Shown: one piece after another, positions 1 through 22,783 of the stretch
Layout of the letters: every line of letters begins with the position of its first letter
Position numbering within the stretch: the first letter of the stretch is position 1
Source of the DNA: Escherichia coli
GTDB taxonomy: Bacteria; Pseudomonadota; Gammaproteobacteria; Enterobacterales; Enterobacteriaceae
Assembly: GCF_029227855.1 (NCBI RefSeq)
Contig: NZ_CP074356.1
Direction: 5' to 3' (one strand)
Length of the DNA: 64,000 nucleotides
The notes under the pieces: generated by a model
Seen by the model: the letters and a program-made list of their open reading frames with translations, nothing else
Database searches by the model: none
Told to the model about the DNA's origin: nothing
Position numbers and translations under genes: made by a program

Positions 1-338
1 CGCTGTCGAAAGAGACGCTCGCCACCATTATCGCCGGAAAACTGGCCCGTCTGGATAACGTGCTGCGCAGTCGCTTTGGTGCAGAAGTGGTCATTGAACC
101 GGAAGTGACGGACGAAATCATGAGCCGCGTCACCCGCGCGGAAAACGGCGCGAGGATGCTGGAATCGGTCATCGATGGCGACATGCTACCGCCGCTCTCG
201 CTGCTGCTGTTGCAGAAAATGGCGGCTAACACGGCGATTGCCCGGATTCGGTTGTCGGCGGTGGACGACGCATTTACGGCAGACGTGGAAGATGCTCAGA
301 ACGACGAGTCCGTCACAAAGGATGAAACGGTTTTATGA
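1..338 (+). CDS. tssH: ClpV/TssH AAA+ ATPase of T6SS, C-terminal fragment (5' end lies outside window)
   Basis: Frame open from window edge to TGA at 336-338; tail ...RFGAEVVIEPEVTDEIMSRVTRAENGARMLESVIDG... resembles Clp/Hsp100 C-terminal small domain; stop overlaps next start (ATGA); followed by tssA/tssM/hcp. Confidence 0.6.
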   Translation, partial: LSKETLATIIAGKLARLDNVLRSRFGAEVVIEPEVTDEIMSRVTRAENGARMLESVIDGDMLPPLSLLLLQKMAANTAIARIRLSAVDDAFTADVEDAQNDESVTKDETVL

Positions 339-1078
339 GCAGGTTGCGCGTTTTCCGGCAGACAGGATGGTTTATCGCGGGCCTGATGACGGGCTTACCC
401 GCCACTGCCGCGCCCGCAGAAACATCGTCAATGGCCGGTGTGGCGGTCGCCGTCGCCACCACGACCCCGCCGGATGCGACAGCCACGTCACAGGCCATGC
501 AGTCCTGTCGGCGGGAGTCCGCGGCGCTGGAGCGGCTTGACTGCTATGACCGCCTGCTGGCACCGCTGTCCCCGTCAGGGTTTGACGGGGCGCTGGTCAA
601 AGCCGGTTTTGTGGGCGAGGCCTGGACCCGCGCCACAGAGCAGGAAAAACGCCGCGAGGGCAACACCACAGAACTGCTGGTGACGCAGGTGCCGGGGGAG
701 CGCCCGACGGTGGTGATAACCACCCCGGCTATCGGCCATGTTCCGCCGCGCCCGGTGCTGATGTTCAGTTGCGTGGACAATATCACCCGGATGCAGGTGG
801 CGCTGATGCACCCTCTGGATGTCCATGATATCGCCGTCACTCTGAATGCCGACAGCCGGGCATTGCGTAGCCACTGGTTTGTGCGCGAGAACGGCACCCT
901 GCTGGAGTCCAGCCGGGGGCTGTCCGGGATTGATGAAATTAAGCAACTGTTCGGCGCAAAAACGCTGACAGTGGATACCGGCGCAGATAACGCCGCAGGA
1001 AAGCTGACCTTTAACATTGACGGGCTGGCAAGGGCGATTGCCCCCCTGCGCGTTGCCTGCCACTGGGCGGGAGAATAA
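335..1078 (+). CDS. T6SS-associated exported protein (VasI-like by position), 247 aa
   Basis: ORF with N-terminal hydrophobic signal-like segment (GWFIAGLMTGLPATAAPA) and Ala/Thr/Pro-rich linker; translationally coupled to clpV and tssA; assignment by synteny only. Confidence 0.5.
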   Translation: MSRLRVFRQTGWFIAGLMTGLPATAAPAETSSMAGVAVAVATTTPPDATATSQAMQSCRRESAALERLDCYDRLLAPLSPSGFDGALVKAGFVGEAWTRATEQEKRREGNTTELLVTQVPGERPTVVITTPAIGHVPPRPVLMFSCVDNITRMQVALMHPLDVHDIAVTLNADSRALRSHWFVRENGTLLESSRGLSGIDEIKQLFGAKTLTVDTGADNAAGKLTFNIDGLARAIAPLRVACHWAGE

Positions 1079-1082
1079 AAAT

Positions 1083-2495
1083 ATGGCAATGGACTTACGC
1101 GATCCGAATGTCTGGATAACGCACCTGCTGGAAAACCTGCCGGAAGAAAAACTGGCATCGGCGCTGAAAGATGACAACCCGGACTGGGAGTATATCGACG
1201 GCGAAATCGTCAAACTGGGATCTCTGGCCCACAGTCAACTGGATATCCCGGAACTCCAGCGCCGGGGGCTGGTCATTCTGGCTTCGGAGAGTAAGGACTT
1301 TCGTCTGCTGGCGCATCTGCTGAGAACCCTGCAACACGCCGGTGATCCTCATCTCGCATTGCGCCTGCTGGCGCTGTATGTGGAGCATTACTGGTCGGTG
1401 GCTGCGCCGCAGAATATGGCACATAAAAAACGCTTTGCCAGCCAGGTCATTAAACGCTTCGAAACAGGTATTGAAGGCTTTTCACAGAACGCCGCCACAG
1501 CGCAGCGCGACGCGCTGTCAGGGGAACTGGCGAAACTGGCGCAGTGCTGGCAGTCACATAACGCCCCGGAACTGGCACTGGCTACCGATGATCTTTTTGC
1601 CCTGTACCAGCGTGCGTTTAATCGTGCGGCACCGGCTCCTGCCCCCACTCCAGCGGCCTCCGATAGTTCACGACAGACCACCGCCACGTCTGAAAGCGGC
1701 GTGACGCAACCCAGTGCTCCGGCTCCCCAAATCGCCATCGACAGTCACGACGACAAAGCCTGGCGCGACACGCTGTTAAAAGTGGCGGCTATTTTATGTG
1801 AACGCCAGCCGGACTCGCCGCAGGGCTATCGCCTGCGCCGCCATGCCCTGTGGCAATCCATCACCAGTACACCCCAGGCGGAAAGCGATGGACGTACCCC
1901 ATTGGCTGCGGTCTCTGCCGATATGGTGGCGGATTACCAGTCCCGGCTTGCCAGCGCGGATATGGCGCTGTGGCAGCAGGTTGAGAAAAGCGTATTGCTG
2001 GCTCCTTACTGGCTGGACGGTCACTGTCTTTCTGCACAGACGGCACTGCGTCTGGGTTACAAACAGGTGGCAGACACCATCCGCGATGAGGTCATCCGCT
2101 TCCTTGAGCGTCTGCCCCAGCTTACCGGGCTGCTGTTTAATGACCGCACACCGTTTCTTAGTGAGCAGACGAAACAATGGCTGGCAGCTTCGCCCGACGG
2201 CAAAGTTGCACCGGTTGCGCAAATCGGTGAGGAATCGCAGGCAGCCAGAGCCTGTTTTGCTGGGCAGGGTCTGGAGGCGGCGCTGCGATATCTGGACATG
2301 CTACCCGAAGGCGATCCCCGCGATCAGTTTCACCGCCAGTACCTTGCCGCACAGTTGACGGAGGAGGCGGGGCTGATACAGCTTGCGCAGCAACAGTACC
2401 GGATGTTGTTGATGATAGGGAGTCAGATGATGGTGTCTGACTGGGAGCCATCATTACTTACGCAGCTTGAACAAAAATTCACGGCAGAACAATAA
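1083..2495 (+). CDS. tssA: TssA (ImpA-family) T6SS protein, 470 aa
   Basis: ATG at 1083 preceded by GGGAGA 7 nt upstream; ~470 aa with internal Pro/Ala-rich linker; immediately upstream of tssM as in VasJ-VasK arrangement. Confidence 0.6.
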   Translation: MAMDLRDPNVWITHLLENLPEEKLASALKDDNPDWEYIDGEIVKLGSLAHSQLDIPELQRRGLVILASESKDFRLLAHLLRTLQHAGDPHLALRLLALYVEHYWSVAAPQNMAHKKRFASQVIKRFETGIEGFSQNAATAQRDALSGELAKLAQCWQSHNAPELALATDDLFALYQRAFNRAAPAPAPTPAASDSSRQTTATSESGVTQPSAPAPQIAIDSHDDKAWRDTLLKVAAILCERQPDSPQGYRLRRHALWQSITSTPQAESDGRTPLAAVSADMVADYQSRLASADMALWQQVEKSVLLAPYWLDGHCLSAQTALRLGYKQVADTIRDEVIRFLERLPQLTGLLFNDRTPFLSEQTKQWLAASPDGKVAPVAQIGEESQAARACFAGQGLEAALRYLDMLPEGDPRDQFHRQYLAAQLTEEAGLIQLAQQQYRMLLMIGSQMMVSDWEPSLLTQLEQKFTAEQ

Positions 2496-2513
2496 AAGAG
2501 AACAGGAGTTTTT

Positions 2514-5500
2514 GTGTTCAGATTACCAACACCCCGACTACTCAGCGGACTCAAATCAGCCCTACGCCCGGCGATGCCCCGGTTTAAAGTCTCCGCTTTC
2601 TGGCTGCTGATACTGGCGTGGATTTTTCTGCTGGTATGGATCTGGTGGAAAGGCCCGACGTGGACGCTGTATGAAGAACAGTGGCTCAAACCACTGGCGA
2701 ACCGCTGGCTGGCAACGGCGGCATGGGGGATTATCGCCCTAGTGTGGCTTACCGTCCGGGTGATGAAGCGCCTGCAACAGCTTGAAAAAATGCAAAAGCA
2801 GCAGCGCGAGGAGGCCATTGATCCGCTCAGTGTGGAGCTGAACGCCCAGCAGCGTTACCTTGACCGCTGGCTGCTGCGCCTGCAACGCCATCTCGACAAC
2901 CGCCGTTTCCTGTGGCAGTTGCCGTGGTATATGGTCATCGGCCCGGCGGGCAGTGGCAAAACGACACTGCTGCGCGAGGGTTTTCCGTCCGACATTATTT
3001 ATGCCCCGGAGGGCGCACGCGGCGCAGAACAACGCCTGTACCTCACGCCCCATGTCGGTAAACAGGCGGTGATCTTTGATATCGACGGCACACTCTGCGC
3101 TCCCGCTGATGCGGATATCCTGCATCGCCGTCTGTGGGAACATGCCCTCGGCTGGCTGAAAGAAAAGCGCGCGCGCCAGTCGCTGAACGGGATTATTCTG
3201 ACACTCGATTTACCCGATCTGCTTACCGCAGACAAACGCCGCCGCGAACATCTGTTACAGACGCTGCGCAGCCGCTTGCAGGATATACGCCAGCATCTTC
3301 ACTGCCAGTTACCGGTTTACGTGGTACTCACCCGGCTTGATTTATTGCAGGGTTTTGCCGCCCTGTTCCAGTCACTGAACAGACAGGATCGCGATGCAAT
3401 TCTAGGGGTCACGTTCACCCGCCGCGCCCATGAAAATGATGACTGGCGAACAGAGTTGAATGCTTTCTGGCAGACATGGGTGGATCGAATGAACCTAGCG
3501 TTGCCGGATCTGATGGTCGCTCAGACTCACACCCGCGCGTCTTTATTTAGTTTTTCCCGCCAGATGCAGGGAAGCCGTGAACCACTGGTGTCACTGCTTG
3601 AGGGTCTGCTTGACGGCGAAAATATGAACGTGATGCTGCGTGGCGTCTATCTCACCTCTTCGCTTCAGCGCGGACAGATGGATGATATTTTCACCCAGTC
3701 TGCCGCCCGCCAATACCGGCTGGGCAATAACCCACTGGCGTCCTGGCCTCTGGTGGACACCGCACCCTATTTCACCCGTAGCATGTTCCCGCAGGCGTTA
3801 CTCGCAGAGCCTAATCTGGCAACGGAGAGCCGCGCCTGGCTGATGCGTTCCCGTCGCCGCCTGACGGTTTTCTCTGCCACTGGCGGCGTGGCGGCACTGC
3901 TGCTCATCACCGGCTGGCATCACTATTACAATGGTAACTATCAGTCCGGCATCACCGTGCTTAAGCAGGCCAAAGCCTTTATGGATGTGCCGCCTCCGCA
4001 GGGGGAAGATGACTATGGCAACCTGCAACTGCCGCTGCTGAACCCGGTACGCGATGCCACTCTGGCCTACGGTGACTGGGGCGACCGCAGCCGCCTTGCG
4101 GAGATGGGATTATATCAGGGGCGACGCATCGGGCCTTATGTGGAACGGACCTACCTGCAACTGCTGGAGCAACGCTATCTTCCGTCGCTGTTTAACGGGC
4201 TGGTCAAAGAGATGAACGCCGCGCCACCGGAGAGTGAGGAAAAACTCGCCGTGCTGCGCGTGATGCGAATGCTGGAGGATAAGAGCGGACGTAACAATGA
4301 GGTGGTGAAGCAGTATATGGCAAAACGCTGGAGCGAAAAGTTCCACGGCCAGCGCGATATCCAGGCGCAACAGATGTCCCATCTTGACTACGCGCTGGCT
4401 CACACAGACTGGCATGCAGAGCGTCAGGCGGGCGACGGTGACGCTATCAGCCGCTGGACGCCGTATGACAAGCCCGTTGTGTCAGCACAGAAAGAACTAA
4501 GCAAACTACCTGTCTACCAGCGAGTTTACCAGAGCCTGAAAACGCGGGCGCTGGGCGTTCTTCCTGCCGACCTCAATCTGCGTGACCAGGTAGGGCCAAC
4601 CTTTGACCAGGTGTTTACATCTGCCGATGACAATAAACTGGTTGTTCCACAGTTTCTTACCCGTTACGGCCTGCAAAGCTATTTTGTAAAACAGCGCGAT
4701 GAACTGGTTGAACTGACGGCGATGGATTCCTGGGTACTCAACCTCACCCGCAGCGTGAAATACAGTGACGCCGACCGGGCGGAAATCCAGCGCCAGTTGA
4801 CCGAGCAGTATATCAGCGACTACACCGCCACCTGGCGGGCCGGGATGGACAATCTGAATATCCGCAATTTTGAGTCCATCGGACAACTGACCGGGGCGCT
4901 GGAGCAGGTTATCAGCGGTGACCAGCCTTTGCAGCGGGCGCTGACCGTGCTGCGTGACAACACACAACCAGGCGCCTTTTCTGAAAAGCTATCTGCTAAA
5001 GAACGGGATGAGGCCCTGGCTGAACCAGACTACCAGTTACTCACCCGCCTTGGGCATGAGTTCGCCCCGGAAAACAGTACCCTGACAGTCCAGAAAGATA
5101 AAGAAAGCACGATGCAGGCCGTGTACCTGCAGCTCACCGAGTTACACCGCTACCTGCTGGCGATCCAGAACGCGCCTGTACCTGGGAAATCGGCACTGAA
5201 AGCCGTGCAGTTACGGCTTGATCAGAACAGCAGCGATCCCATATTCGCCACCCGCCAGATGGCAAAAACACTGCCTGCTCCGCTCAACCGCTGGGCAGGC
5301 AGGCTGGCTGACCAGGCCTGGCATGTGGTGATGGTGGAAGCCGTTCACTATATGGAAGTGGACTGGCGCGACAGCGTGGTGAAACCGTTTAACGAGCAAC
5401 TGGCAAATAACTATCCGTTTAATCCACATTCTGCACAGGATGCCTCACTGGATGCCTTCGAACGATTCTTTAAACCAGATGGCATACTGGATACCTTCTA

Positions 5501-6038
5501 CCAGCAGAACCTAAAGCTGTTTATCGACAATGACCTGAGTCTGGAGGATGGCGATAACAACGTCATTATTCGCGAAGATATTATTGCGCAACTGGAAACC
5601 GCGCAGAAAATCCGTGACATATTCTTCAGCAAACAGAACGGTCTGGGAACATCCTTTGCCGTGGAAACGGTATCGCTTTCCGGCAACAAACGCCGCAGCG
5701 TACTGAACCTTGACGGTCAGTTAGTCGATTACAGCCAGGGCCGTAACTATACCGCCCATCTGGTCTGGCCTAACAATATGCGCGAAGGCAACGAAAGCAA
5801 ACTGACGCTGGTTGGTGCCCGCGGCGGCGCACCGCGCAGTATCAGCTTCAGCGGGCCGTGGGCTCCGTTCCGCCTGTTCGGGGCCGGACAGCTGACCGGA
5901 GTACAGGATGGCAACTTTACCGTGCGCTTTAGTGTGGACGGTGGCGCAATGACCTACCGCGTGCATACCGACACGGAAGATAACCCGTTCAGCGGTGGGT
6001 TATTCAGCCAGTTTGGCCTGTCAGACACACTGTACTGA
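2514..6038 (+). CDS. tssM: TssM (IcmF/VasK) T6SS membrane complex protein, 1174 aa
   Basis: GTG start at 2514 with AGGAG 6 nt upstream; N-terminal hydrophobic helices; Walker A GPAGSGKTT encoded at 2940-2966; size typical of IcmF family. Confidence 0.85.
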   Translation: MFRLPTPRLLSGLKSALRPAMPRFKVSAFWLLILAWIFLLVWIWWKGPTWTLYEEQWLKPLANRWLATAAWGIIALVWLTVRVMKRLQQLEKMQKQQREEAIDPLSVELNAQQRYLDRWLLRLQRHLDNRRFLWQLPWYMVIGPAGSGKTTLLREGFPSDIIYAPEGARGAEQRLYLTPHVGKQAVIFDIDGTLCAPADADILHRRLWEHALGWLKEKRARQSLNGIILTLDLPDLLTADKRRREHLLQTLRSRLQDIRQHLHCQLPVYVVLTRLDLLQGFAALFQSLNRQDRDAILGVTFTRRAHENDDWRTELNAFWQTWVDRMNLALPDLMVAQTHTRASLFSFSRQMQGSREPLVSLLEGLLDGENMNVMLRGVYLTSSLQRGQMDDIFTQSAARQYRLGNNPLASWPLVDTAPYFTRSMFPQALLAEPNLATESRAWLMRSRRRLTVFSATGGVAALLLITGWHHYYNGNYQSGITVLKQAKAFMDVPPPQGEDDYGNLQLPLLNPVRDATLAYGDWGDRSRLAEMGLYQGRRIGPYVERTYLQLLEQRYLPSLFNGLVKEMNAAPPESEEKLAVLRVMRMLEDKSGRNNEVVKQYMAKRWSEKFHGQRDIQAQQMSHLDYALAHTDWHAERQAGDGDAISRWTPYDKPVVSAQKELSKLPVYQRVYQSLKTRALGVLPADLNLRDQVGPTFDQVFTSADDNKLVVPQFLTRYGLQSYFVKQRDELVELTAMDSWVLNLTRSVKYSDADRAEIQRQLTEQYISDYTATWRAGMDNLNIRNFESIGQLTGALEQVISGDQPLQRALTVLRDNTQPGAFSEKLSAKERDEALAEPDYQLLTRLGHEFAPENSTLTVQKDKESTMQAVYLQLTELHRYLLAIQNAPVPGKSALKAVQLRLDQNSSDPIFATRQMAKTLPAPLNRWAGRLADQAWHVVMVEAVHYMEVDWRDSVVKPFNEQLANNYPFNPHSAQDASLDAFERFFKPDGILDTFYQQNLKLFIDNDLSLEDGDNNVIIREDIIAQLETAQKIRDIFFSKQNGLGTSFAVETVSLSGNKRRSVLNLDGQLVDYSQGRNYTAHLVWPNNMREGNESKLTLVGARGGAPRSISFSGPWAPFRLFGAGQLTGVQDGNFTVRFSVDGGAMTYRVHTDTEDNPFSGGLFSQFGLSDTLY

Positions 6039-6048
6039 GGAGGCAGGG

Positions 6049-7401
6049 ATGAATAGTAACGGACTGACACAAACTATCGTTACCGGCAGTGACCCGCGCG
6101 GGCTGCCGGAATTCAGCGCCATCCGCGAGGAAATAAACAAAGCCAGCCATCCGTCACAGCCTGAGCTGAACTGGAAACTGGTGGAGTCGCTGGCGCTGGC
6201 GATTTTTAAAGCCAACGGTGTGGATTTACACACCGCCACCTACTATACGCTTGCCCGGACACGGACACAGGGACTGGCGGGATTCTGCGAAGGTGCGGAA
6301 CTGCTGGCGGCAATGGTAAGCCACGACTGGGATAAATTCTGGCCGCAGGGCGGTCCGGCGCGTACTGAAATGCTGGACTGGTTTAACTCCCGAACCGGCA
6401 ATATTCTGCGTCAGCAAATCCCCTTTGCGGAACCCGATCTGCCACTGATCTACCGCACAGAGCGGGCATTGCAGCTTATCTGCGACAAGCTTCAGCAGGT
6501 GGAGCTGAAGCGCGTTCCGCGCGTGGAGAATCTGCTCTATTTTATGCAGAACACGCGTAAGCGGCTTGAACCCCAGCCGAAGAGTAACGTTGAAAACGCC
6601 GTACAGACCACGGTTAGAACACTGATTTATGCCCCGGAAACAACGGCTTCCTCCACGCCAGAAGCGGTAGTGCCTCCCCTGCCCGACCTGCCTGAGATGA
6701 AAGTAGAAGTGCGCAGTCTGTCAGAGAATCCCCCACAGGCCAGTGTGATGAAGCAAGGCAGTACGGTAAGAGGGTTTATCACGGGGATCGCCTGTTCAGT
6801 GGCTGTCGCCTCAGCATTGTGGTGGTGGCAGGTCTATCCGGTGCAACAGCAACTGTTACAGGTTAACGACACCGCGCAGGGCGCAGCAACGGTGTGGATG
6901 GCCTCACCTGAACTAGAAAACTATGAGCGCAGGCTGCAACAGCTTCTTGGCGTCTCCCCGGTACAACCGCTGGAAACCGGGATGCAGATGATGCGTGTTG
7001 CCGACAGTCGCTGGCCGGAAAGCCTGCAGCAGCAGCAGGCCTCGACACATTGGAATGAAGCACTCAAAACCCGCGCACAGAGTAGCCCGCAGTTGCGTGG
7101 CTGGTTGCAGACCCGTCAGGACTTACATGCTTTTGCAGATCTCGTGATGCGGCGCGAGAAAGAGGGACTAACCCTTTCCTATATCAAAAATGTCATCTGG
7201 CAGGCGGAGCGGGGACTGGGGCAGGAAACACCCGTTGAGTCTCTGTTGACGCAGTACCAGGATACCCGTGCGCAGAAGCAGAATATAGATGCGCTGGAAA
7301 AACAAATTAATGAGCGACTCGAAGGCGTGTTAATCCGCTGGCTGCTGCTGAAGAATAACGTCATGCCAGAGGCGGCAACCGGGACCACGGCCGAAAAATA
7401 A
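6049..7401 (+). CDS. TssA-like / VasL-like membrane-anchored T6SS accessory protein, 450 aa
   Basis: ATG at 6049 after GAGGAGG (6038-6044); central hydrophobic segment ITGIACSVAVASALWWW; position after tssM matches VasL; family call by synteny, not verified. Confidence 0.5.
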   Translation: MNSNGLTQTIVTGSDPRGLPEFSAIREEINKASHPSQPELNWKLVESLALAIFKANGVDLHTATYYTLARTRTQGLAGFCEGAELLAAMVSHDWDKFWPQGGPARTEMLDWFNSRTGNILRQQIPFAEPDLPLIYRTERALQLICDKLQQVELKRVPRVENLLYFMQNTRKRLEPQPKSNVENAVQTTVRTLIYAPETTASSTPEAVVPPLPDLPEMKVEVRSLSENPPQASVMKQGSTVRGFITGIACSVAVASALWWWQVYPVQQQLLQVNDTAQGAATVWMASPELENYERRLQQLLGVSPVQPLETGMQMMRVADSRWPESLQQQQASTHWNEALKTRAQSSPQLRGWLQTRQDLHAFADLVMRREKEGLTLSYIKNVIWQAERGLGQETPVESLLTQYQDTRAQKQNIDALEKQINERLEGVLIRWLLLKNNVMPEAATGTTAEK

Positions 7402-7424
7402 TTATTTAATTAAAGGAGATTATC

Positions 7425-7907
7425 ATGGCAAATATGAGTTATTTATCTTTGAGTGGAGAGACACAAGGGCTGATTTCAGCAGGTTGCTCAACGCTTGATT
7501 CTGTCGGAAACAAAGCACAGCCAGAACATAAAGATCAGATCATGGTTTATGCGTTAATGCATTCCATCTCAAGAAGTCAAAATGTCAATCATCATGAATT
7601 AATTATCACCAAACCGGTTGATAAATCCTCACCATTGCTGGCAAAAGCACTTAGTGACAATGAAAAAATGGTAACATGTGAATTTATACTCTACCGAACC
7701 AGTAAAGCGGGTATTTACCAGCCTTATTATAAAATAAACCTGTCAAAAGCCCGAATATCAAGTATTGATTTTGTCACACCGCATGCTGTCCTGGAAAAAG
7801 AACTGGAGCCACAGGAGAGAATTGCCTTTATTTATGAAGATATTTCCTGGGAGCATACGTTAGCCGGTACGAATGCAATGAGTAAATGGCAGGATCGTGT
7901 ACAGTAA
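7425..7907 (+). CDS. hcp: Hcp (TssD) T6SS tube protein, 160 aa
   Basis: AGGAG RBS upstream; 160 aa; Hcp-like segments KSSPLLAKAL and ERIAFIYEDISWEH; no C-terminal extension; lower GC than upstream T6SS genes. Confidence 0.8.
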   Translation: MANMSYLSLSGETQGLISAGCSTLDSVGNKAQPEHKDQIMVYALMHSISRSQNVNHHELIITKPVDKSSPLLAKALSDNEKMVTCEFILYRTSKAGIYQPYYKINLSKARISSIDFVTPHAVLEKELEPQERIAFIYEDISWEHTLAGTNAMSKWQDRVQ

Positions 7908-7950
7908 TTTACTGTAATAACATAATAAATTACTATTGCGGAGAGATATA

Positions 7951-8865
7951 ATGGCTGGTTTAAGGAATAATAACAACACACAGAATGCACAGTGGGCTGA
8001 TTATGTGGGTGACATTCTTCGGGGGGCTCAACCGATAAACCAGCTAGTACCTCAGCACCCTTATCTTAACGACGTCCCACTCATTGATGAATTAAGGCGT
8101 CAGAACACTCATCATGTTATTCTCTTGACACTTGATGTTGCAAAAAAAATACTCAACTCAATAACATCATTTGATTACATTCATTTTATCACTACACATC
8201 CTTCAGGTATAAAAGATACACTCGCTTGGTTAGTTAACGCGGGTAAATTAATGACTGAGTTTGATGGAAATGGGAAAATTATATTTAACTTTAATACCTT
8301 AAAGTATACAAAAGCAAGTTACTTTGAAATACTTGGAGAGAAATATATAAAAATTACAACATCCAGCCCCTGGCTTTTAGAAAAGCTCGGTAAATATATT
8401 TTCTCTTCACGAGCGCCTCAAGTTCTGGAACTCGCTATTGGCTGGCGAGGAGCTTTATCTGAATCAATAAAAGGAGTTAAGTTCTGTATCTGGTTTTCAG
8501 TAGCCTGGAGAACCATAGAATTTATTATGAGTTCAGAGCGAGATCTGGTTAATTTTCTTGGTGATTTTTCAATGGATGTGGCCAAAGCAGTGATTGCAGG
8601 CGGTGTTGCAACTGCTATTGGAAGCCTGGCTTCTTTTGCCTGTCTTAGTTTTGGCCTTCCAGTAATTCTTGTAGGAGGAGCAATTTTACTTACAGGGATA
8701 GTGTGTACAGTTGTTTTAAATGAAATCGATGCTCAATACCATTTATCAGAAAAATTAAAAGATGCAATTAGAGATGGACTAAAACGGCAACAGGAACTTG
8801 ATAAATGGAAAAGGGAAAACATGACTCCATTTATGTATGTTCTTAACACTCCTCCCGTGATATGA
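7951..8865 (+). CDS. hypothetical protein, 304 aa, C-terminal Gly/Ala-rich hydrophobic helical hairpin; candidate T6SS cargo effector
   Basis: ATG 7951 with GGAGAG 5 nt upstream; ~220-aa polar N-terminal region, then two hydrophobic helices (AVIAGGVATAIGSLASFA and GLPVILVGGAILLTGIVCTVVL) and a charged tail; AT-rich; 43 nt downstream of hcp. Confidence 0.55.
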   Translation: MAGLRNNNNTQNAQWADYVGDILRGAQPINQLVPQHPYLNDVPLIDELRRQNTHHVILLTLDVAKKILNSITSFDYIHFITTHPSGIKDTLAWLVNAGKLMTEFDGNGKIIFNFNTLKYTKASYFEILGEKYIKITTSSPWLLEKLGKYIFSSRAPQVLELAIGWRGALSESIKGVKFCIWFSVAWRTIEFIMSSERDLVNFLGDFSMDVAKAVIAGGVATAIGSLASFACLSFGLPVILVGGAILLTGIVCTVVLNEIDAQYHLSEKLKDAIRDGLKRQQELDKWKRENMTPFMYVLNTPPVI

Positions 8866-8874
8866 GGATTAACT

Positions 8875-9129
8875 ATGCGTTTACATGTTAAATTGAAAGA
8901 GTTTTTTTCGATGTTTTTTATAGCCATATTATTTTTCCCTGCATTCAATGCTTCTTTATTTTTTACCGGAATTAAACCTCTATATTCAATAATAAAAGGC
9001 TCCACGGAAATATTTTATGATTGGAGAATGTTGATTCTATGCTTCGGTTTCATATCGTTTTCCTTGTTAAATATTCATGTAATTTTACTAACAATAATAA
9101 AATCATTCTTAATAAAAAAACAAAGGTAA
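8875..9129 (+). CDS. small membrane protein, 84 aa, two predicted TM helices; candidate immunity protein
   Basis: ATG 8875 with GAGGA 6 nt upstream, 9 nt after previous stop; very hydrophobic product; ends just after an A7 run at 9114-9120. Confidence 0.4.
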   Translation: MRLHVKLKEFFSMFFIAILFFPAFNASLFFTGIKPLYSIIKGSTEIFYDWRMLILCFGFISFSLLNIHVILLTIIKSFLIKKQR

Positions 9130-9341
9130 TCAATTTCGCCACAGACATAACAATACAGCTAACTCTTATATTTTTACTAATAGCTATCGTAATAGCACCT
9201 TTAATAGCTCCTTTTGTCACAGGATATGTCAATGCTAATTATCACCCCTGCGGTAATAACACGGGGATTTTCCCAGGAGCAATCTATATTAAAAATGGCA
9301 TAAAATGTAATAATGAACATATTTCTCGCAAGGAAGATTAA
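9021..9341 (+). CDS. hypothetical small membrane ORF (frame 0); possibly the 3' part of a frameshifted gene with 8875..9129
   Basis: Overlaps previous ORF in another frame; one hydrophobic helix LTLIFLLIAIVIAPLIAPFV; no convincing own RBS; frames would join with one extra A at 9114-9120. Confidence 0.2.
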   Translation: MENVDSMLRFHIVFLVKYSCNFTNNNKIILNKKTKVINFATDITIQLTLIFLLIAIVIAPLIAPFVTGYVNANYHPCGNNTGIFPGAIYIKNGIKCNNEHISRKED

Positions 9342-9454
9342 GCAGTTAAATAATTAAATATTCTAAAACAAACAGTTTTTAACGCCGGATTCCATGTCCT
9401 TTCTTGCACTGTCTTTGTCAGGAACAATTTCTTATGCAAAGAATTTTGTATTAT

Positions 9455-9477
9455 TGCCGCCAGAAATTCCTGGCGGC
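9455..9477. terminator. hairpin between convergent cargo ORFs and yafT
   Basis: GCCGCCAG-aaattc-CTGGCGGC inverted repeat flanked by AT-rich sequence. Confidence 0.4.
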
Positions 9478-9489
9478 AGATATAATTTA

Positions 9490-10275
9490 TTATTGATAGC
9501 GGTTAACCAAATCTTTTACCATCGCTTTATAGGTCTTTTGCTTAAGTTGTATGATTTGCTGCTCTGTCATATCAGTCGTACTGGCTTCATTCTTGCCGGG
9601 AAATGGTGGAAGCACTTTATATTCATAATTCACCGGCGACCAGGCAGCCCACTCACCTGTAGCTACATCCACCAGCGTGAATCGCACCAGATAGCGCAGT
9701 GAGATTGTGTTAGTCAGTTTTTCATTTTTATAATCGGACCATACTGTTGATTTCAGTGCAGTGTCATATTTTCCTGTCTGCAACGTATCCTGGTAAACAA
9801 TAATCGCTTTCTGATGGCCTTTTGCCGCCACAAAACGTAATGCCTGCATCCAGTTCATATTTTCAGCACTGGCAACATCCTCGTTCTCATTTTTATCTTT
9901 GTTTTTGTTACAAGTCAGAGGCTTTTGTCTGTCCGGGATACCAGAGAATGTGGAAACAGTATAATATTTTCGCATCTCCTCCTGCATAATGGTTTCCGGT
10001 GCGCGGTTGCCGGATTGAACAAGTATTACAGGTGAATTAAGGGGAACGCGGAACTCATCTCCATCAAGCGCAGCTTGAATATCCTCCTCGGATACGGCTA
10101 GTGTGGTTTCATTACCAAATAAGTCTTTGTCTGTTAGTTGCTGCGGAGCGTTTTTATTAAAATTACTTTGTGTGGTTTGAGCTTTTTTCTTCTTTTCATC
10201 AATAAGAGATTCAGAGACACATCCTGCAAGCAGCGACAATAATACATATATACAACAAACCTTTTTTGAATTCAA
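9490..10275 (-). CDS. yafT: YafT lipoprotein, 261 aa
   Basis: Signal peptide with lipobox LLAGC; Lys/Asn-rich; AT-rich; sits beside aspV as in K-12. Confidence 0.85.
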
Positions 10276-10546
10276 AATCGGACACTCCCTCGTCTGTCAT
10301 AATCATGGTAATGTTTAGCTAACGATTTTTAATTATATACTCCACTTGAATCAGAACAAACAAAAATAATATTAAATATTAATTCATTAAATCAATAGAA
10401 TAATAAAAATTATAACATGGAAATATATTTAAATTGAATGATTCGCTGGTATTATTAAATATTAATGAATGGTCAATCATATATAATTACCACATTTACA
10501 GCATAACAAAATAATTGAACGAAGAAATTGTGGGGTTTAAATACAA

Positions 10547-10582
10547 AAAAAACCGCAAAATTAAAAATTTTGCGGTTCTCTG
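10547..10582 (-). terminator. rho-independent terminator downstream of aspV
   Basis: On minus strand: stem AACCGCAAAAT/ATTTTGCGGTT followed by T8. Confidence 0.7.
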
Positions 10583-10604
10583 AACTCATTTTCATGAGTG
10601 AATT

Positions 10605-10681
10605 TGGCGGAACGGACGGGACTCGAACCCGCGACCCCCTGCGTGACAGGCAGGTATTCTAACCGACTGAACTACCGCTCC
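10605..10681 (-). tRNA. aspV: tRNA-Asp(GUC)
   Basis: 77-nt reverse complement of canonical E. coli tRNA-Asp including CCA; identical to the copy at 19539-19615. Confidence 0.95.
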
Positions 10682-10813
10682 GCGTTGTGTTCCGTTGGGA
10701 ACGAGGCGAATATTACGGATTGCCTCACCCTTCGTCAACGGTTTTTCTCATCTTTTGAATCGTTTGCTGCAAAAATCGCCCAAGTCGCTATTTTTAGCGC
10801 CTTTTACAGGTAT

Positions 10814-11545
10814 TTATGCCCGCCAGAGGCAGCTTCCGCCCTTTTTCTGCACCAGATCGAGACGGGCTTCATGTGCCGCAAGCTCTTCATCTGTCGCAAA
10901 AACAACGCGTAACTTACTTGCCTGACGCACAATGCGCTGAATTGTTGTTTCACCTTGTTGCTGTTGTGTCTCTCCTTCCATCGCAAAAGCCATCGACGTT
11001 TGACCACCAGTCATCGCCAGATAAACTTCCGCAAGGATCTGGGCATCGAGTAATGCCCCGTGCAACGTTCGTTTACTGTTATCTATTTCGTAGCGGGCAC
11101 ATAACGCATCGAGGCTGTTGCGCTTACCGGGAAACATTTTCCTCGCCACCGCAAGGCTATCGGTGACCTTACAGAAGGTATTGGTCTTCGGAATATCGCG
11201 CTTAAGCAACGAAAACTCGTAGTCCATAAAGCCGATATCGAACGCTGCGTTATGGATCACCAACTCCGCGCCGCGAATATAGTCCATGAACTCATCGGCT
11301 ACTTCGGCAAACGTGGGCTTATCGAGCAAAAATTCATCGGCAATACCATGTACGCCAAAGGCTTCCGGATCCACCAGCCGATCGGGTTTGAGATAAACAT
11401 GGAAGTTATTGCCCGTCAGGCGACGGTTCACCACTTCAACGGCACCAATCTCAATGATCTTGTGGCCTTCATAGTGCGCGCCAATCTGGTTCATACCGGT
11501 GGTTTCGGTATCGAGAACGATCTGGCGTGTAATTGCAGTGCTCAT
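10814..11545 (-). CDS. dnaQ: DNA polymerase III epsilon subunit (3'-5' proofreading exonuclease), 243 aa
   Basis: Translation [20 protein letters not shown]... matches DnaQ; start chosen at the conserved Met (ORF extends 3 codons further). Confidence 0.95.
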
Positions 11546-11609
11546 AGCGGTCATTTATGTCAGACTTATCGTTTTACAGTTCGATTCAATTACAGGAAGT
11601 CTACCAGAG

Positions 11610-12077
11610 ATGCTTAAACAGGTAGAAATTTTCACCGATGGTTCGTGTCTGGGTAATCCAGGACCTGGGGGTTACGGCGCTATTTTACGCTATCGCGGAC
11701 GCGAGAAAACCTTTAGCGCAGGCTACACCCGCACCACCAACAACCGTATGGAGTTGATGGCCGCTATTGTCGCGCTGGAGGCGTTAAAAGAACATTGCGA
11801 AGTCATTTTGAGTACCGACAGCCAGTATGTCCGCCAGGGTATCACCCAGTGGATCCATAACTGGAAAAAACGTGGCTGGAAAACCGCAGACAAAAAACCA
11901 GTAAAAAATGTCGATCTCTGGCAACGTCTTGATGCTGCGCTGGGGCAGCATCAAATCAAATGGGAATGGGTTAAAGGCCATGCCGGTCATCCAGAAAACG
12001 AACGTTGCGATGAACTGGCTCGTGCCGCAGCGATGAATCCCACACTGGAAGATACGGGCTATCAAGTCGAAGTTTAA
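11610..12077 (+). CDS. rnhA: ribonuclease HI, 155 aa
   Basis: [26 protein letters not shown]...; divergent from dnaQ. Confidence 0.95.
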
Positions 12078-12796
12078 GCCTGTGGTTTACGACATTGCCG
12101 GGTGGCTCCAACCGCCTGGCGAATTCGTGGCTTGTTTTTACTCTGTTTCATCGGATTTAGCGTTAAAGGAATAGTCCGTTTCCGGGCGACAATAAGTTGT
12201 AAGCAACCAAGCGCAGGAATATGCGCATTCAATAGTTTTCCACCGTGTTTGTTCCACGGGAGAACGTGGAAACGGCTGGCGTGTAGCACTTCAAAATTCA
12301 ACAAAGAGAGCCAGTCCAGCTGCCGCATCAGAGTAAACATCCGGCTATTATAGGGCGAGGTTTTGCGCAATACCGGCACAAGTTTTCGTAATCCCATTAA
12401 ACTGATGGGATTGAAGCCACTAATCACCAGCCAGCCATCATCAATCAATACCCGATCGGCTTCACGCAATAAACGATGCGGATCGGTGCACCACGGCAAT
12501 GTATGTGCCAGTAGACAAACATCAACGGATTTATCGGCAAAAGGAAGATGAAGTGGGTCCGCCTGCACCTGGACGGGCAGTCCTTGCGCAGAAACATTCA
12601 CTTGATGAGAAACCGCGCACGCTTCGCAATTGATTTCTGCGCTTAAATTGCCAATCTTAAGCAGATGAAAACCATACATTTTAGTGAACCACGGGTTGAG
12701 CTGGCGCTCCAGCGCCTTGCGATAAAGCTCTCCCCAGGGCAAATCGCCCCAGCAATCAGGAGCCACGACAGTTTGAGGGACTCTTGCCGGTTTCAT
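12074..12796 (-). CDS. yafS: SAM-dependent methyltransferase YafS, 240 aa
   Basis: Recognised YafS-like sequence [22 protein letters not shown]...; start taken at second Met to match known length. Confidence 0.8.
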
Positions 12797-13656: not shown

Positions 13657-15015
13657 ATGAAGGCAAAAGCGATATTACTCGCCTCTGTCCTGCTCGTGGG
13701 TTGCCAGAGTACCGGCAACGTTCAACAGCACGCACAGAGCCTTTCTGCAGCTGGTCAAGGGGAAGCAGCAAAGTTTACAAGTCAGGCACGATGGATGGAC
13801 GATGGGACGTCTATCGCGCCAGATGGTGACTTGTGGGCTTTCATTGGCGACGAGCTAAAGATGGGAATTCCGGAAAATGACCGGATTCGCGAACAGAAAC
13901 AGAAATATTTACGCAATAAGAGCTATCTCCACGATGTAACTTTACGGGCAGAGCCGTATATGTACTGGATAGCCGGGCAAGTTAAAAAACGTAACATGCC
14001 TATGGAACTGGTACTACTACCCATAGTGGAGAGCGCTTTTGATCCTCACGCAACGTCTGGCGCCAATGCAGCAGGCATCTGGCAGATCATTCCGAGCACG
14101 GGGCGCAATTATGGTTTGAAACAGACCCGCAATTATGACGCGCGTCGCGATGTTGTTGCTTCAACAACTGCCGCGCTGAACATGATGCAGCGTCTGAACA
14201 AGATGTTTGACGGCGACTGGCTTCTGACCGTAGCGGCTTATAACAGCGGCGAAGGTCGAGTCATGAAGGCAATTAAAACGAACAAAGCGCGTGGGAAATC
14301 CACGGACTTCTGGTCGTTACCGTTGCCGCAGGAAACGAAGCAGTACGTGCCTAAAATGCTGGCATTGAGTGATATTCTCAAAAACAGCAAGCGTTATGGC
14401 GTACGTCTGCCAACGACCGATGAAAGCCGTGCTCTGGCGCGTGTGCACCTGAGCAGCCCAGTTGAAATGGCGAAGGTTGCAGATATGGCGGGGATTTCCG
14501 TCAGCAAGCTTAAGACATTCAACGCTGGCGTGAAAGGCTCCACGCTGGGCGCAAGTGGTCCGCAGTACGTGATGGTGCCAAAGAAGCATGCAGATCAACT
14601 GCGTGAATCTCTGGCTTCGGGCGAAATTGCTGCTGTACAGTCGACGCTGGTTGCCGACAATACGCCGCTTAACAGCCGTGTTTACACCGTACGCTCTGGC
14701 GACACGCTTTCAAGTATCGCTTCACGTCTCGGCGTTAGCACCAAAGATTTGCAGCAGTGGAACAAACTGCGCGGATCTAAGCTGAAGCCAGGCCAAAGCT
14801 TGACGATTGGCGCAGGTAGTAGCGCACAGCGGTTGGCAAACAACAGCGATAGCATTACATATCGTGTGCGCAAAGGCGATTCGCTTTCAAGCATTGCTAA
14901 ACGCCACGGCGTGAACATCAAAGATGTGATGCGCTGGAACAGCGATACTGCGAATCTGCAACCAGGCGATAAGCTGACGTTGTTTGTGAAAAACAACAAC
15001 ATGCCAGATTCCTGA
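13657..15015 (+). CDS. mltD: membrane-bound lytic murein transglycosylase D, 452 aa
   Basis: Lipoprotein signal LLVGC, transglycosylase core, C-terminal LysM repeats. Confidence 0.9.
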   Translation: MKAKAILLASVLLVGCQSTGNVQQHAQSLSAAGQGEAAKFTSQARWMDDGTSIAPDGDLWAFIGDELKMGIPENDRIREQKQKYLRNKSYLHDVTLRAEPYMYWIAGQVKKRNMPMELVLLPIVESAFDPHATSGANAAGIWQIIPSTGRNYGLKQTRNYDARRDVVASTTAALNMMQRLNKMFDGDWLLTVAAYNSGEGRVMKAIKTNKARGKSTDFWSLPLPQETKQYVPKMLALSDILKNSKRYGVRLPTTDESRALARVHLSSPVEMAKVADMAGISVSKLKTFNAGVKGSTLGASGPQYVMVPKKHADQLRESLASGEIAAVQSTLVADNTPLNSRVYTVRSGDTLSSIASRLGVSTKDLQQWNKLRGSKLKPGQSLTIGAGSSAQRLANNSDSITYRVRKGDSLSSIAKRHGVNIKDVMRWNSDTANLQPGDKLTLFVKNNNMPDS

Positions 15016-15034
15016 CAAATCAGATAATAAATAT

Positions 15035-15058
15035 CCTCCGGCATAGCCGGAGGTTTTT
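15035..15058 (+). terminator. rho-independent terminator of mltD
   Basis: CCTCCGGC-ata-GCCGGAGG stem followed by TTTTT. Confidence 0.75.
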
Positions 15059-15061
15059 CAA

Positions 15062-19538: not shown

Positions 19539-19615
19539 TGGCGGAACGGACGGGACTCGAACCCGCGACCCCCTGCGTGACAGGCAGGTATTCTAACCGA
19601 CTGAACTACCGCTCC
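19539..19615 (-). tRNA. aspU: tRNA-Asp(GUC), distal tRNA of rrnH
   Basis: 77-nt reverse complement of canonical tRNA-Asp including CCA. Confidence 0.95.
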
Positions 19616-19667
19616 ACCGAATTCTTTTACAACCACCGGTTTTATGACCGGCTTACTGCTAAATTTG

Positions 19668-19787
19668 ATGCCTGGCAGTTCCCTACTCTCGCATGGGGAG
19701 ACCCCACACTACCATCGGCGCTACGGCGTTTCACTTCTGAGTTCGGCATGGGGTCAGGTGGGACCACCGCGCTAAGGCCGCCAGGCA
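19668..19787 (-). rRNA. rrfH: 5S ribosomal RNA
   Basis: 120-nt reverse complement of E. coli 5S rRNA; one difference from the copy I recall. Confidence 0.95.
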
Positions 19788-19878
19788 AATTCTGTTTATC
19801 AGACCGCTTCTGCGTTCTGATTTAATCTGTATCAGGCTGAAAATCTTCTCTCATCCGCCAAAACATCTTCGGCGTTGT

Positions 19879-22783
<2,905 letters not shown>

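What the first reader, a model, noticed from the sequence alone, without database searches (positions are those of the whole stretch)
1..7907. Partial type VI secretion structural locus in Vibrio-like order, tightly coupled
The window opens inside a T6SS cluster: ClpV C-terminus, a VasI-like exported protein, TssA, TssM, a VasL-like protein and Hcp, all on the plus strand with overlapping or near-abutting stop/start codons (ATGA overlap at 335-338; gaps of 4-23 nt), implying one operon. The order clpV-vasI-tssA-tssM-vasL resembles the Vibrio cholerae large cluster. The remaining core genes (tssB/C, tssE-G, tssJ-L, vgrG) must lie beyond the window start.
Basis: partly seen in the sequence, partly recalled or inferred. 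Interest (0 to 1): 0.5.

Follow-up and report, generated by a model that had tools for sequence, protein, structure and literature searches.

The report
E. coli T6SS-2 operon tail end

Summary
Confirmed and ordinary. Window 1-7907 carries, on the + strand, the clpV/tssH 3' end, vasI, tssA, tssM, a TagA/VasL-type gene and hcp. All are intact. All match their NCBIfam or Pfam families far above cut-off. The junctions are as reported: an ATGA overlap, then gaps of 4, 18, 10 and 23 nt.

The window is E. coli chromosome, 99.95% identical to strain JNEC-KY178 over 64 kb. In that genome every missing core gene lies directly upstream, with a divergent hcp-vgrG-rhs unit. The locus abuts yafT and tRNA-Asp aspV. 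This is the published E. coli "T6SS-2" island (EHEC EDL933, APEC, NMEC).

The order matches V. cholerae VCA0116-0121, except that vasH is absent and an hcp follows vasL.

The unit does not stop at 7907. hcp starts an AT-rich module (30-39% GC against 56-64%) that continues with a 304-aa Tme-family membrane toxin (7951-8865) and its predicted immunity gene ykfM (8875-9342). A strong hairpin follows at 9455-9479. In this window ykfM is frameshifted at a poly-A tract.

K-12 yafU and ykfM are remnants of this module. Novelty: already known. Interest: low.

The parts
1..338 (+). 3' end of tssH/clpV (last 111 codons; the gene starts upstream of the window)
   Evidence: TIGR03345 TssH model positions 767-851 of 852, E = 1e-15. 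Annotated tssH in the 99.95%-identical genome JNEC-KY178, ending at this position.
335..1078 (+). vasI (T6SS accessory protein, 247 aa; start overlaps the clpV stop in ATGA)
   Evidence: TIGR03360 VasI, 256 bits against a cut-off of 124. Overlap read. The Salmonella orthologue carries PF11319 VasI. The N-terminus MSRLRVFRQTGWFIAGLMTGLPATAA looks like a signal peptide, but no dedicated predictor was run.
1083..2495 (+). tssA (class A: ImpA_N + VasJ; 470 aa)
   Evidence: TIGR03362, 500 bits against a cut-off of 230. Pfam ImpA_N 27-112 and T6SS_VasJ 223-465, E = 2e-70. PDB relatives are 6G7B (272 bits) and V. cholerae 6RIU (216 bits).
2514..6038 (+). tssM/icmF-type membrane-complex subunit (1174 aa from GTG 2514; RefSeq starts at 2574 or 2604)
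   Evidence: TIGR03348, 932 bits against a cut-off of 388, covering model positions 2-1167 of 1168. Three hydrophobic segments (22-49, 65-84, 450-468) and Walker A GPAGSGKT at residue 143. The C-terminal domain matches PDB 4Y7M.
6049..7401 (+). tagA/vasL-type gene (class B TssA-like; 450 aa)
   Evidence: Pfam ImpA_N 12-113 (E = 3e-19) and VasL PF12486 292-434 (E = 7.5e-22). Hydrophobic stretch at residues 239-260, mean Kyte-Doolittle 1.56. Only a partial TssA hit below cut-off in NCBIfam. RefSeq calls it 'VasL domain-containing protein'.
7425..7907 (+). hcp (tssD; the 'Hcp2A'-position Hcp at the end of the main operon), first gene of the AT-rich module
   Evidence: TIGR03344, 204 bits against a cut-off of 59. 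GC 0.39 against 0.56-0.64 for the core genes. It is 57% identical to the orphan Hcp next to tme/tmi in Rahnella, but only 29% to the strain's other Hcp.
   Evidence: No Pfam or NCBIfam hit. It is 96% identical to E. coli SE11 WP_000908051.1. That protein is listed with a Tme domain at 122-277, E = 1.2e-35, in Suppl. Data of PMC7046647. Invariant D209-x-x-K212, hydrophobic 213-259 and D260.
8875..9342 (+). ykfM: predicted Tmi (DUF1240-like) immunity gene, frameshifted here at the A7 tract 9114-9120 (the ORF stops at 9129)
   Evidence: Alignment with JNEC-KY178 (A8) and K-12 (CA7). PGAP labels the A7 allele 'frameshifted' in strain 746. The intact protein has three hydrophobic segments. It is 50% identical to a Salmonella protein carrying PF06836 DUF1240. 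A direct Pfam scan was negative.
9455..9479 (.). GC-rich hairpin between convergent ykfM and yafT; likely bidirectional terminator and 3' end of the T6SS transcription unit
   Evidence: Terminator-like site. RNA fold -21.7 kcal/mol, z = -4.85 on the + strand; -19.5 kcal/mol, z = -4.7 on the - strand.
10605..10681 (-). tRNA-Asp (aspV), chromosomal anchor of the island
   Evidence: ARAGORN and Rfam. Same arrangement as K-12 aspV-yafT-ykfM-yafU.

Best explanation
Window 1-7907 is the distal third of the main operon of the E. coli T6SS-2 gene cluster. This is the horizontally acquired island next to tRNA-Asp aspV that is already described in EHEC, APEC, NMEC and many commensals.

The roles below follow from established knowledge of each family, not from tests here:
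- ClpV recycles the contracted sheath.
- VasI is an accessory protein. In V. cholerae it is dispensable for Hcp secretion but needed for full killing.
- TssA (ImpA_N + VasJ) caps the growing sheath and tube and coordinates their growth.
- TssM, with TssJ and TssL, forms the envelope-spanning membrane complex.
- The TagA/VasL protein is a membrane-anchored factor that limits and stabilises the fully extended sheath.
- Hcp forms the tube.

The tight spacing, the absence of internal terminators and the single strong hairpin after ykfM suggest one transcript. It would run from upstream of the window through hcp into two further genes. These are a Tme-family membrane-disrupting toxin, probably carried by this particular Hcp, and its multi-pass membrane immunity protein YkfM.

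hcp-tme-ykfM is a separately acquired AT-rich cargo module grafted onto the GC-rich core.

In the strain sequenced here the immunity gene is broken by a 1-base loss in a poly-A run, while the toxin gene is intact.
For: Family assignments are above curated cut-offs.

The window is 99.95% identical over 64 kb to E. coli JNEC-KY178. That genome has tssB, tssC, tssE, tssF, tssG, tagH, tssJ, tssK and tssL directly upstream, plus a divergent hcp-vgrG-rhs unit. Strain 746 has the same layout.

Among 5426 complete E. coli genomes, 1828 hold at least 80% of window 1-10600 and 2548 hold hcp plus the tme 5' part.

Literature:
- A 37-kb aspV-linked T6SS island in EDL933, H-NS repressed (PMC5363993).
- The APEC 'vipA2-hcp2A' main cluster against the divergent 'hcp2B-vgrG2' operon (PMC5874247).
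- T6SS-2 defined by gene organisation, FHA and rhs (PMC10711316).
- V. cholerae gene order and phenotypes (PMC3166118).
- TssA and TagA classes (PMC6745524).

Operon evidence: gaps of -4, 4, 18, 10, 23, 43 and 9 nt. There is no convincing intergenic terminator or stable fold in the vasL-hcp and hcp-tme spacers. There is a strong hairpin at 9455-9479.

Cargo-module evidence:
- The GC step from 0.56-0.64 to 0.30-0.39.
- The Tme listing of a 96%-identical protein with the same 43-nt and 9-nt spacing.
- The DxxK-TM-D motif.
- The same trio in Salmonella at the same place, and in Rahnella as an AT-rich islet with no T6SS core within the 8 kb fetched on each side.
Against: The upstream two thirds of the cluster are not in the window. 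Their presence is inferred from near-identical genomes.

No transcript data were examined here, so a single operon is inferred. The hcp-tme-ykfM part is AT-rich, carries several weak promoter-like sites and could be transcribed separately.

No E. coli Tme or YkfM experiment was found in the searchable literature. YkfM does not hit Pfam DUF1240 directly.

At 34 kDa, Tme is large for an effector carried inside Hcp rings (own knowledge).

The published E. coli T6SS-2 clusters are H-NS-silenced in the laboratory, so activity in this strain is unknown.
Confidence: 0.93

Rival explanations
1. The locus is a decaying or silent relic in this strain. The genes are recognisable but the system no longer fires, as in ST131 clade C, ST410-B4 and O157:H7.
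For: ykfM is frameshifted in the window. The rhs gene of the related strain 746 is frameshifted. Published parallel losses and degeneration of E. coli T6SS-2 (PMC10711316; PMC12981562). H-NS silencing.
Against: All six in-window machine genes are full length, with end-to-end model coverage and no stops. tssM is not IS-interrupted. tme is intact. All upstream core genes are intact in JNEC-KY178.
Confidence: 0.25
2. The segment is not one operon. hcp-tme-ykfM is an independent, separately regulated transcription unit that merely sits behind vasL.
For: Sharp GC drop at about 7400. The same trio exists away from any T6SS core in Rahnella. AT-rich DNA is the usual H-NS target (own knowledge). Weak promoter-like matches lie at 7898-7926 and 8125-8153.
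Against: The gap between vasL and hcp is only 23 nt, with a Shine-Dalgarno sequence and no stable fold (z = 0.68). No terminator lies after vasL. APEC work treats vipA2-hcp2A as one cluster. The promoter-like sites score only 9-10 of 12 and lie inside or after hcp.
Confidence: 0.25
3. The IcmF-like and ImpA-like genes belong to another machine, such as a type IVB secretion system, rather than a T6SS.
For: TssM also hits the type IVB IcmF model at 187 bits. RefSeq names the upstream tssL 'IcmH/DotU'.
Against: The IcmF_IVB score is far below its cut-off of 1000, while the TssM model scores 932 against a cut-off of 388. Neighbouring genes are T6SS-specific: sheath, baseplate, Hcp, VgrG and ClpV.
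Confidence: 0.01

Closest known systems
E. coli T6SS-2 cluster at aspV (EHEC EDL933 O-island with z0250-z0267; APEC TW-XM T6SS2; NMEC RS218)
   Same: Same chromosomal site, next to aspV and yafT. Same gene content and order: main operon tssB...clpV-vasI-tssA-tssM-vasL-hcp, with a divergent hcp-vgrG-rhs unit. FHA gene present. A 96-100% identical copy is present in hundreds to thousands of complete E. coli genomes.
   Different: Nothing structural. The differences are allelic: two private SNPs and the A7 frameshift in ykfM, which is shared with 44 of 5426 genomes.
Vibrio cholerae large T6SS cluster (VCA0107-VCA0123)
   Same: Order clpV, VasI (VCA0118), TssA (VCA0119), VasK/TssM (VCA0120), TagA/VasL (VCA0121). 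Same domain classes: TssA is ImpA_N + VasJ, and TagA is ImpA_N + hydrophobic + VasL. TssA scores 216 bits against V. cholerae TssA 6RIU.
   Different: There is no sigma-54 activator vasH between clpV and vasI. An hcp gene and a tme/tmi pair follow vasL here, in place of VCA0122 and vgrG-3. V. cholerae hcp genes lie outside the large cluster. Regulation in E. coli is by H-NS silencing.
EAEC Sci-1 (E. coli T6SS-1), the structurally best-studied E. coli T6SS
   Same: Same 13 core functions. TagA was first characterised there (cited).
   Different: Distant lineage. Sci-1 TssA (4YO3) scores only 33 bits, Hcp1 (4HKH) 28 bits and the TssM C-terminal domain (4Y7M) 43 bits. The gene order differs (own knowledge).
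Tme1/Tmi1 and Tme2/Tmi2 of Vibrio parahaemolyticus (Fridman et al. 2020, PMC7046647)
   Same: C-terminal Tme domain with DxxK, a transmembrane helix and a flanking D. A multi-pass DUF1240-like protein is encoded directly downstream and a T6SS gene directly upstream.
   Different: The E. coli member is only computationally listed, not tested. It follows an Hcp. YkfM is not recognised by the Pfam DUF1240 model itself. Here the immunity gene is frameshifted.

Membership tests
Type VI secretion system gene cluster (E. coli T6SS-2) | Core genes tssA, tssM, tssH (clpV) and tssD (hcp) present and intact | tested here: met
   NCBIfam equivalog and subfamily hits are above cut-off for TssA, TssM and Hcp. 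The C-terminal fragment matches the end of the TssH model. No internal stops.
Type VI secretion system gene cluster (E. coli T6SS-2) | Remaining core genes tssB, C, E, F, G, J, K, L and vgrG adjacent | tested here: inconclusive
   They are not in the window. All are present directly upstream in JNEC-KY178 (99.95% identical over 64 kb) and in strain 746.
Type VI secretion system gene cluster (E. coli T6SS-2) | Location next to tRNA-Asp aspV, with accessory genes tagH (FHA), vasI, tagA/vasL and an rhs-linked vgrG | tested here: met
   aspV lies at 10605-10681. vasI and vasL are in the window. tagH and rhs are seen in the near-identical genomes.
Type VI secretion system gene cluster (E. coli T6SS-2) | Functional secretion (Hcp export, sheath dynamics) | not testable with these tools
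   Shown for EHEC and APEC clusters only in hns mutants or in serum. Unknown for this strain.
TssA class A | N-terminal ImpA_N domain plus C-terminal VasJ domain | tested here: met
   Pfam ImpA_N 27-112 and T6SS_VasJ 223-465. The class definition is in PMC6745524.
TagA (class B TssA-like, VasL) | ImpA_N domain, central hydrophobic region, C-terminal VasL domain (PF12486) | tested here: met
   ImpA_N 12-113 and VasL 292-434. The hydrophobic stretch 239-260 has mean KD 1.56, just under the usual 1.6 threshold for a transmembrane helix.
TssM (IcmF-like) | Three transmembrane segments, cytoplasmic Walker A NTPase motif, periplasmic C-terminal domain | tested here: met
   Hydrophobic segments 22-49, 65-84 and 450-468, and GPAGSGKT at residue 143. 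Full-length TIGR03348 match. The C-terminus matches 4Y7M.
[quoted passage not shown] | C-terminal Tme domain: near-invariant DxxK, then a predicted transmembrane helix flanked by another D | tested here: met
   D209-V-A-K212, hydrophobic 213-259 and D260 are invariant across 7 homologues. A 96%-identical SE11 protein is listed as Tme with E = 1.2e-35.
[quoted passage not shown] | T6SS-dependent secretion and membrane-depolarising toxicity neutralised by the downstream gene | not testable with these tools
   Shown only for Vibrio Tme1 and Tme2. No E. coli study was found.
Tmi / DUF1240 immunity | Match to DUF1240 (PF06836) or a DUF1240-like protein | tested here: inconclusive
   A direct Pfam scan of intact YkfM found no hit. 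YkfM is 50% identical to the Salmonella positional orthologue that carries PF06836. It is weakly similar (23%, E = 5e-5) to the Rahnella DUF1240 protein.
Tmi / DUF1240 immunity | Encoded immediately downstream of tme, with 3-6 transmembrane helices, and intact | tested here: not met
   Position (9-nt gap) and three hydrophobic segments hold for the intact allele. In this window the gene is frameshifted after codon 82 and stops at 9129, losing the third helix and the C-terminal part.

The most novel reading that the evidence does not exclude
The Hcp at the end of the T6SS-2 operon may not be a generic tube subunit. It could be the dedicated carrier of a mobile AT-rich hcp-tme-tmi cassette that moves between Enterobacterales independently of the T6SS core.

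Its immunity gene ykfM may switch on and off by slippage at an A7/A8 tract. At least two slippage events are implied among three near-identical genomes. Such lineages would carry an intact membrane toxin without immunity.

K-12's long-unexplained ykfM would then be an orphan immunity gene, and yafU would be the toxin stump.
Probability: 0.2. Interest if true: 0.35.

Novelty: already known. Interest (0 to 1): 0.1.

Why it matters
It matters little as a discovery. The cluster, its aspV location, its Vibrio-like organisation and its H-NS silencing are all published, and RefSeq annotates every gene in it.

The practical value is in annotation:
- The functional unit extends to about 9480, not 7907.
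- tssM most likely starts at GTG 2514, upstream of the RefSeq calls.
- The 'hypothetical protein' after hcp is a Tme-family toxin candidate.
- K-12 yafU and ykfM can be read as the stump of that toxin and its surviving immunity gene.
- In this lineage the immunity gene is frameshifted while the toxin is intact. That is a cheap, testable hint about whether T6SS-2 is ever fired by these strains.

Tried and rejected
- Pfam and NCBIfam on the 304-aa ORF and on YkfM gave nothing. Identification came instead from gene context in Salmonella and Rahnella and from the DUF1240 literature trail.
- A full-text search for 'ykfM' or 'yafU' returned only unrelated acronyms.
- A search for E. coli Tme/Tmi experiments found none.
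- Rfam at gathering thresholds found only tRNA-Asp in 1-12500.
- The repeat search in 7300-10800 found only short AT-rich chance matches.
- The vasL-hcp and hcp-tme spacers do not fold better than shuffles, so there is no attenuator or terminator there.
- A blastn 'distant' search for ykfM paralogues found a median of one place per genome, so no second immunity copy is visible at the DNA level.
- The type IVB IcmF reading was rejected on score: 187 bits against a cut-off of 1000.
- Long antisense ORFs inside vasI (544-1158 and 575-1213, - strand) were treated as by-products of high GC and not pursued.
- Two Python runs failed because a locus file had not yet been synchronised. The alignment tools were used instead.
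- Structure prediction, fold search and the large protein and metagenome scans were not used. They could not change the verdict on a locus that is 99.95% identical to annotated genomes.
Full report
**What is in the sequence**

The + strand of window 1-7907 carries an uninterrupted series of ORFs.
- An ORF open at the window start ends at 338.
- Five more run 335-1078, 1083-2495, 2514-6038, 6049-7401 and 7425-7907.
- The first junction is an ATGA stop/start overlap at 335-338.

The only uncertain boundary is the start of the fourth gene.
- RefSeq annotation of near-identical strains uses ATG 2574 or position 2604.
- GTG 2514 has an AGGAG 5 nt upstream, and both GTG and AGGAG are conserved in Salmonella.
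- The 20 codons between GTG and ATG differ from Salmonella by 8 synonymous and 3 non-synonymous changes. That is the pattern of translated sequence.

**What the genes are**

NCBIfam equivalog models assign the ORFs as follows.

| ORF | Family and model | Score (bits) | Curated cut-off |
|---|---|---|---|
| 1-338 | TssH/ClpV, last 85 model positions | 57 (fragment) | 885 |
| 335-1078 | VasI, TIGR03360 | 256 | 124 |
| 1083-2495 | TssA, TIGR03362 | 500 | 230 |
| 2514-6038 | TssM, TIGR03348, end-to-end | 932 | 388 |
| 7425-7907 | Hcp, TIGR03344 | 204 | 59 |

Further detail:
- Pfam shows that TssA is of the ImpA_N + VasJ type.
- The fifth ORF (6049-7401) has ImpA_N plus the VasL domain PF12486, with a hydrophobic stretch between them. 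This is the 'class B' TagA architecture of Schneider et al. 2019 (PMC6745524).
- TssM has the expected three hydrophobic segments and a Walker A motif.
- The weak hit of TssM to the type IVB IcmF model (187 bits against a cut-off of 1000) excludes a Dot/Icm reading.

**Where it comes from and what lies upstream**

Megablast against 5,426 complete E. coli genomes finds the first 10.6 kb of the window in 4,224 genomes. In 1,828 of them at least 80% of it is covered.

The best match is strain JNEC-KY178. It is 99.95% identical to the window over all 64 kb. In that genome the genes immediately upstream are tssB, a small hypothetical gene, tssC, tssE, tssF, tssG, tagH (FHA), tssJ, tssK, tssL (annotated icmH/dotU) and tssH. 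A divergently transcribed hcp-vgrG-rhs unit lies beyond them. Strain 746 shows the same layout.

Downstream, the window continues into yafT, tRNA-Asp (aspV, 10605-10681), dnaQ and rnhA. After that come ordinary core genes up to glnD and dapD.

This is the published aspV-linked T6SS island of E. coli:
- It is a 37-kb, H-NS-repressed cluster in EHEC EDL933 (PMC5363993).
- It is the 'T6SS2' of APEC, with a main vipA2-hcp2A cluster and a divergent hcp2B-vgrG2 operon (PMC5874247).
- It is classified as T6SS-2 by its organisation, its FHA gene and its rhs element (PMC10711316).

**The Vibrio comparison**

In V. cholerae the large cluster reads VCA0116 clpV, VCA0117 vasH, VCA0118 (VasI, predicted exported), VCA0119 (TssA), VCA0120 vasK, VCA0121 (TagA/VasL), VCA0122 and vgrG-3. 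Its hcp genes lie elsewhere (PMC3166118; PMC6745524).

The E. coli order is the same, with three differences:
- No vasH sits between clpV and vasI. Those two genes overlap here.
- An hcp follows vasL.
- The tail end holds a toxin/immunity pair instead of VCA0122 and vgrG-3.

The kinship extends beyond gene order. The TssA here scores 272 bits against Aeromonas TssA (6G7B) and 216 bits against V. cholerae TssA (6RIU). It scores only 33 bits against the TssA of the E. coli Sci-1 system (4YO3). Hcp and TssM show the same trend.

**How it most likely works**

The roles below follow from established knowledge of the families and from the cited papers. They were not tested here.
- ClpV disassembles contracted sheaths.
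- TssM, with TssJ and TssL, builds the envelope-spanning complex.
- TssA caps the distal end and coordinates sheath and tube polymerisation.
- TagA/VasL is anchored in the membrane, and limits and stabilises the extended sheath.
- VasI is accessory. In V. cholerae it is dispensable for Hcp secretion but needed for full killing.
- Hcp forms the tube.

Co-transcription is inferred, not shown:
- The spacers are tiny.
- The vasL-hcp and hcp-tme spacers do not fold better than shuffled sequence.
- The only strong + strand hairpin lies at 9455-9479, between the convergent ykfM and yafT genes. It folds at -21.7 kcal/mol with z = -4.85, and folds equally well on the other strand.

**The unit does not end at 7907**

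At about 7400 the GC content drops from 0.56-0.64 in clpV through vasL to 0.39 in hcp, 0.38 in the next ORF and 0.30 in the one after.

The ORF at 7951-8865 (304 aa) has no Pfam or NCBIfam match. Its relatives are a narrow set of 'hypothetical proteins' in E. coli, Salmonella enterica and Rahnella.

Gene context gave the lead:
- In Salmonella it sits in the same place after hcp and is followed by a DUF1240 protein.
- In Rahnella bruchi it sits with a DUF1240 gene next to an orphan hcp, in an AT-rich islet with no T6SS core within the 8 kb fetched on each side.

DUF1240 is the immunity family (Tmi) of the Tme 'type VI membrane-disrupting effectors' described by Fridman et al. 2020 (PMC7046647).
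- Their supplementary table lists E. coli SE11 WP_000908051.1. It has 304 aa, a Tme domain at 122-277 with E = 1.2e-35, an upstream Hcp at 43 nt and a downstream 159-aa three-helix protein at 9 nt.
- The window protein is 96% identical to that entry and has the same 43-nt and 9-nt spacings.
- It also carries the defining DxxK motif, the transmembrane stretch and the flanking D. These are D209, K212 and D260, and all are invariant among seven homologues.

The downstream gene is ykfM.
- The intact protein has three hydrophobic segments.
- It is 50% identical to the Salmonella DUF1240 protein.
- The Pfam model does not detect it directly.

The Hcp of this module is 57% identical to the Rahnella orphan Hcp, but only 29% identical to the other Hcp of the same E. 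coli cluster. This suggests that the Hcp type travels with the toxin. No experimental work on the E. coli pair was found in the searchable literature. Its function as a T6SS-delivered toxin and immunity pair is therefore inferred by homology.

**Details noticed on the way**

- **ykfM frameshift.** In the window, ykfM is frameshifted at the poly-A tract 9114-9120. The window has A7. JNEC-KY178 has A8, and K-12 has CA7, which is in frame. PGAP labels the A7 allele 'frameshifted' in strain 746.
- **Allele counts.** Exact matches to the A7 version occur in 44 of 5,426 genomes and to the A8 version in 255. Another 2,594 genomes match at 90-95% identity. The listed examples span 88 bases, like the in-frame K-12 allele, and include K-12-type strains.
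- **Repeated slippage.** Over the 10.7 kb compared, the window shares ten SNP states with JNEC-KY178 (A8) against strain 746 (A7), yet it shares the A7 state with strain 746. At least two slippage events, or assembly errors, are needed among these three close relatives.
- **K-12 remnants.** K-12 homology to the window begins at 8509, inside tme. The K-12 pseudogene yafU is the last 112 codons of tme, and K-12 ykfM is the intact immunity gene left after loss of the T6SS.
- **Orphan carriage.** ykfM is present in about 3,000 genomes, and hcp plus the tme 5' part in 2,548. Several hundred genomes therefore resemble K-12 in this respect.

**Verdict**

- There is no vasH.
- hcp belongs to an appended AT-rich cargo module.
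- The unit extends to about 9480.
- A single operon is inferred rather than shown.

The locus is a textbook, RefSeq-annotated, very common E. coli feature. Its novelty is 'already known' and its interest is low. The Tme/YkfM reading is itself implicit in published supplementary data. Only the frameshifted immunity allele and the link to K-12 yafU and ykfM add a modest new angle.

Noticed in passing
window 7951-8865: The 304-aa 'hypothetical protein' directly after hcp is a Tme-family predicted membrane-disrupting T6SS effector. It has the DxxK-TM-D motif and is 96% identical to a protein listed as Tme in the supplement of PMC7046647. It is unnamed in RefSeq and no study of it in E. coli was found in the searchable literature.
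   Followed up: yes
window 8875-9342 (poly-A at 9114-9120): ykfM, the predicted Tmi immunity gene, is frameshifted at an A7 tract. A8 or CA7 is in frame. Exact A7 occurs in 44 of 5426 complete E. coli genomes and exact A8 in 255. Comparing the window with two close relatives implies at least two slippage events, or homopolymer assembly errors. The toxin gene next to it is intact.
   Followed up: partly
window 8509 onward; L003 (K-12 NC_000913.3 238257-239084): K-12 homology starts inside tme at window 8509. The K-12 pseudogene yafU is the last 112 codons of tme, and K-12 ykfM is the intact immunity gene. They are remnants of a deleted T6SS-2 island and a possible orphan immunity gene. About 450-500 more genomes carry ykfM than carry hcp plus the tme 5' part.
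   Followed up: partly
window 7400-9480 versus 1-7400; L004 7500-10500: There is a sharp GC step, from 0.56-0.64 in the core to 0.30-0.39 in hcp-tme-ykfM. The same trio forms an AT-rich islet in Rahnella bruchi with no T6SS core within the 8 kb fetched on each side. The Rahnella Hcp is 57% identical to this Hcp, whereas the strain's other Hcp is only 29% identical.
   Followed up: partly
window 2514 / 2574 / 2604: RefSeq annotations of near-identical strains disagree on the tssM start (ATG 2574 or position 2604). The conserved AGGAG-GTG at 2514, and 8 synonymous against 3 non-synonymous codon changes versus Salmonella, favour GTG 2514.
   Followed up: yes
window 9455-9479: A GC-rich hairpin lies between the convergent ykfM and yafT genes. 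It folds at -21.7 and -19.5 kcal/mol on the two strands, with z about -4.8. It is a likely bidirectional terminator.
   Followed up: yes
window about 15135-15593: An IS200C-type tnpA lies between mltD and a methyltransferase gene. It is annotated in JNEC-KY178, with which the window aligns without a break, and it is absent from strain 746. A local GC-skew dip is seen at 15001-15500.
   Followed up: no
window 544-1158 and 575-1213 (- strand): Two long antisense ORFs of 204 and 212 aa lie inside vasI. They are most likely by-products of the 64% GC content and were not examined further.
   Followed up: no
window 19539-24800: An rRNA operon on the - strand (16S, tRNA-Ile, tRNA-Ala, 23S, 5S, and a second tRNA-Asp identical to aspV) lies downstream of dkgB. 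The two identical tRNA-Asp genes are about 9 kb apart.
   Followed up: no
(two plasmid hits): Two of the 4238 places matching window 1-10600 are on plasmids. A plasmid-borne T6SS-2 has been reported (pSTEC299_1, PMC10711316).
   Followed up: no
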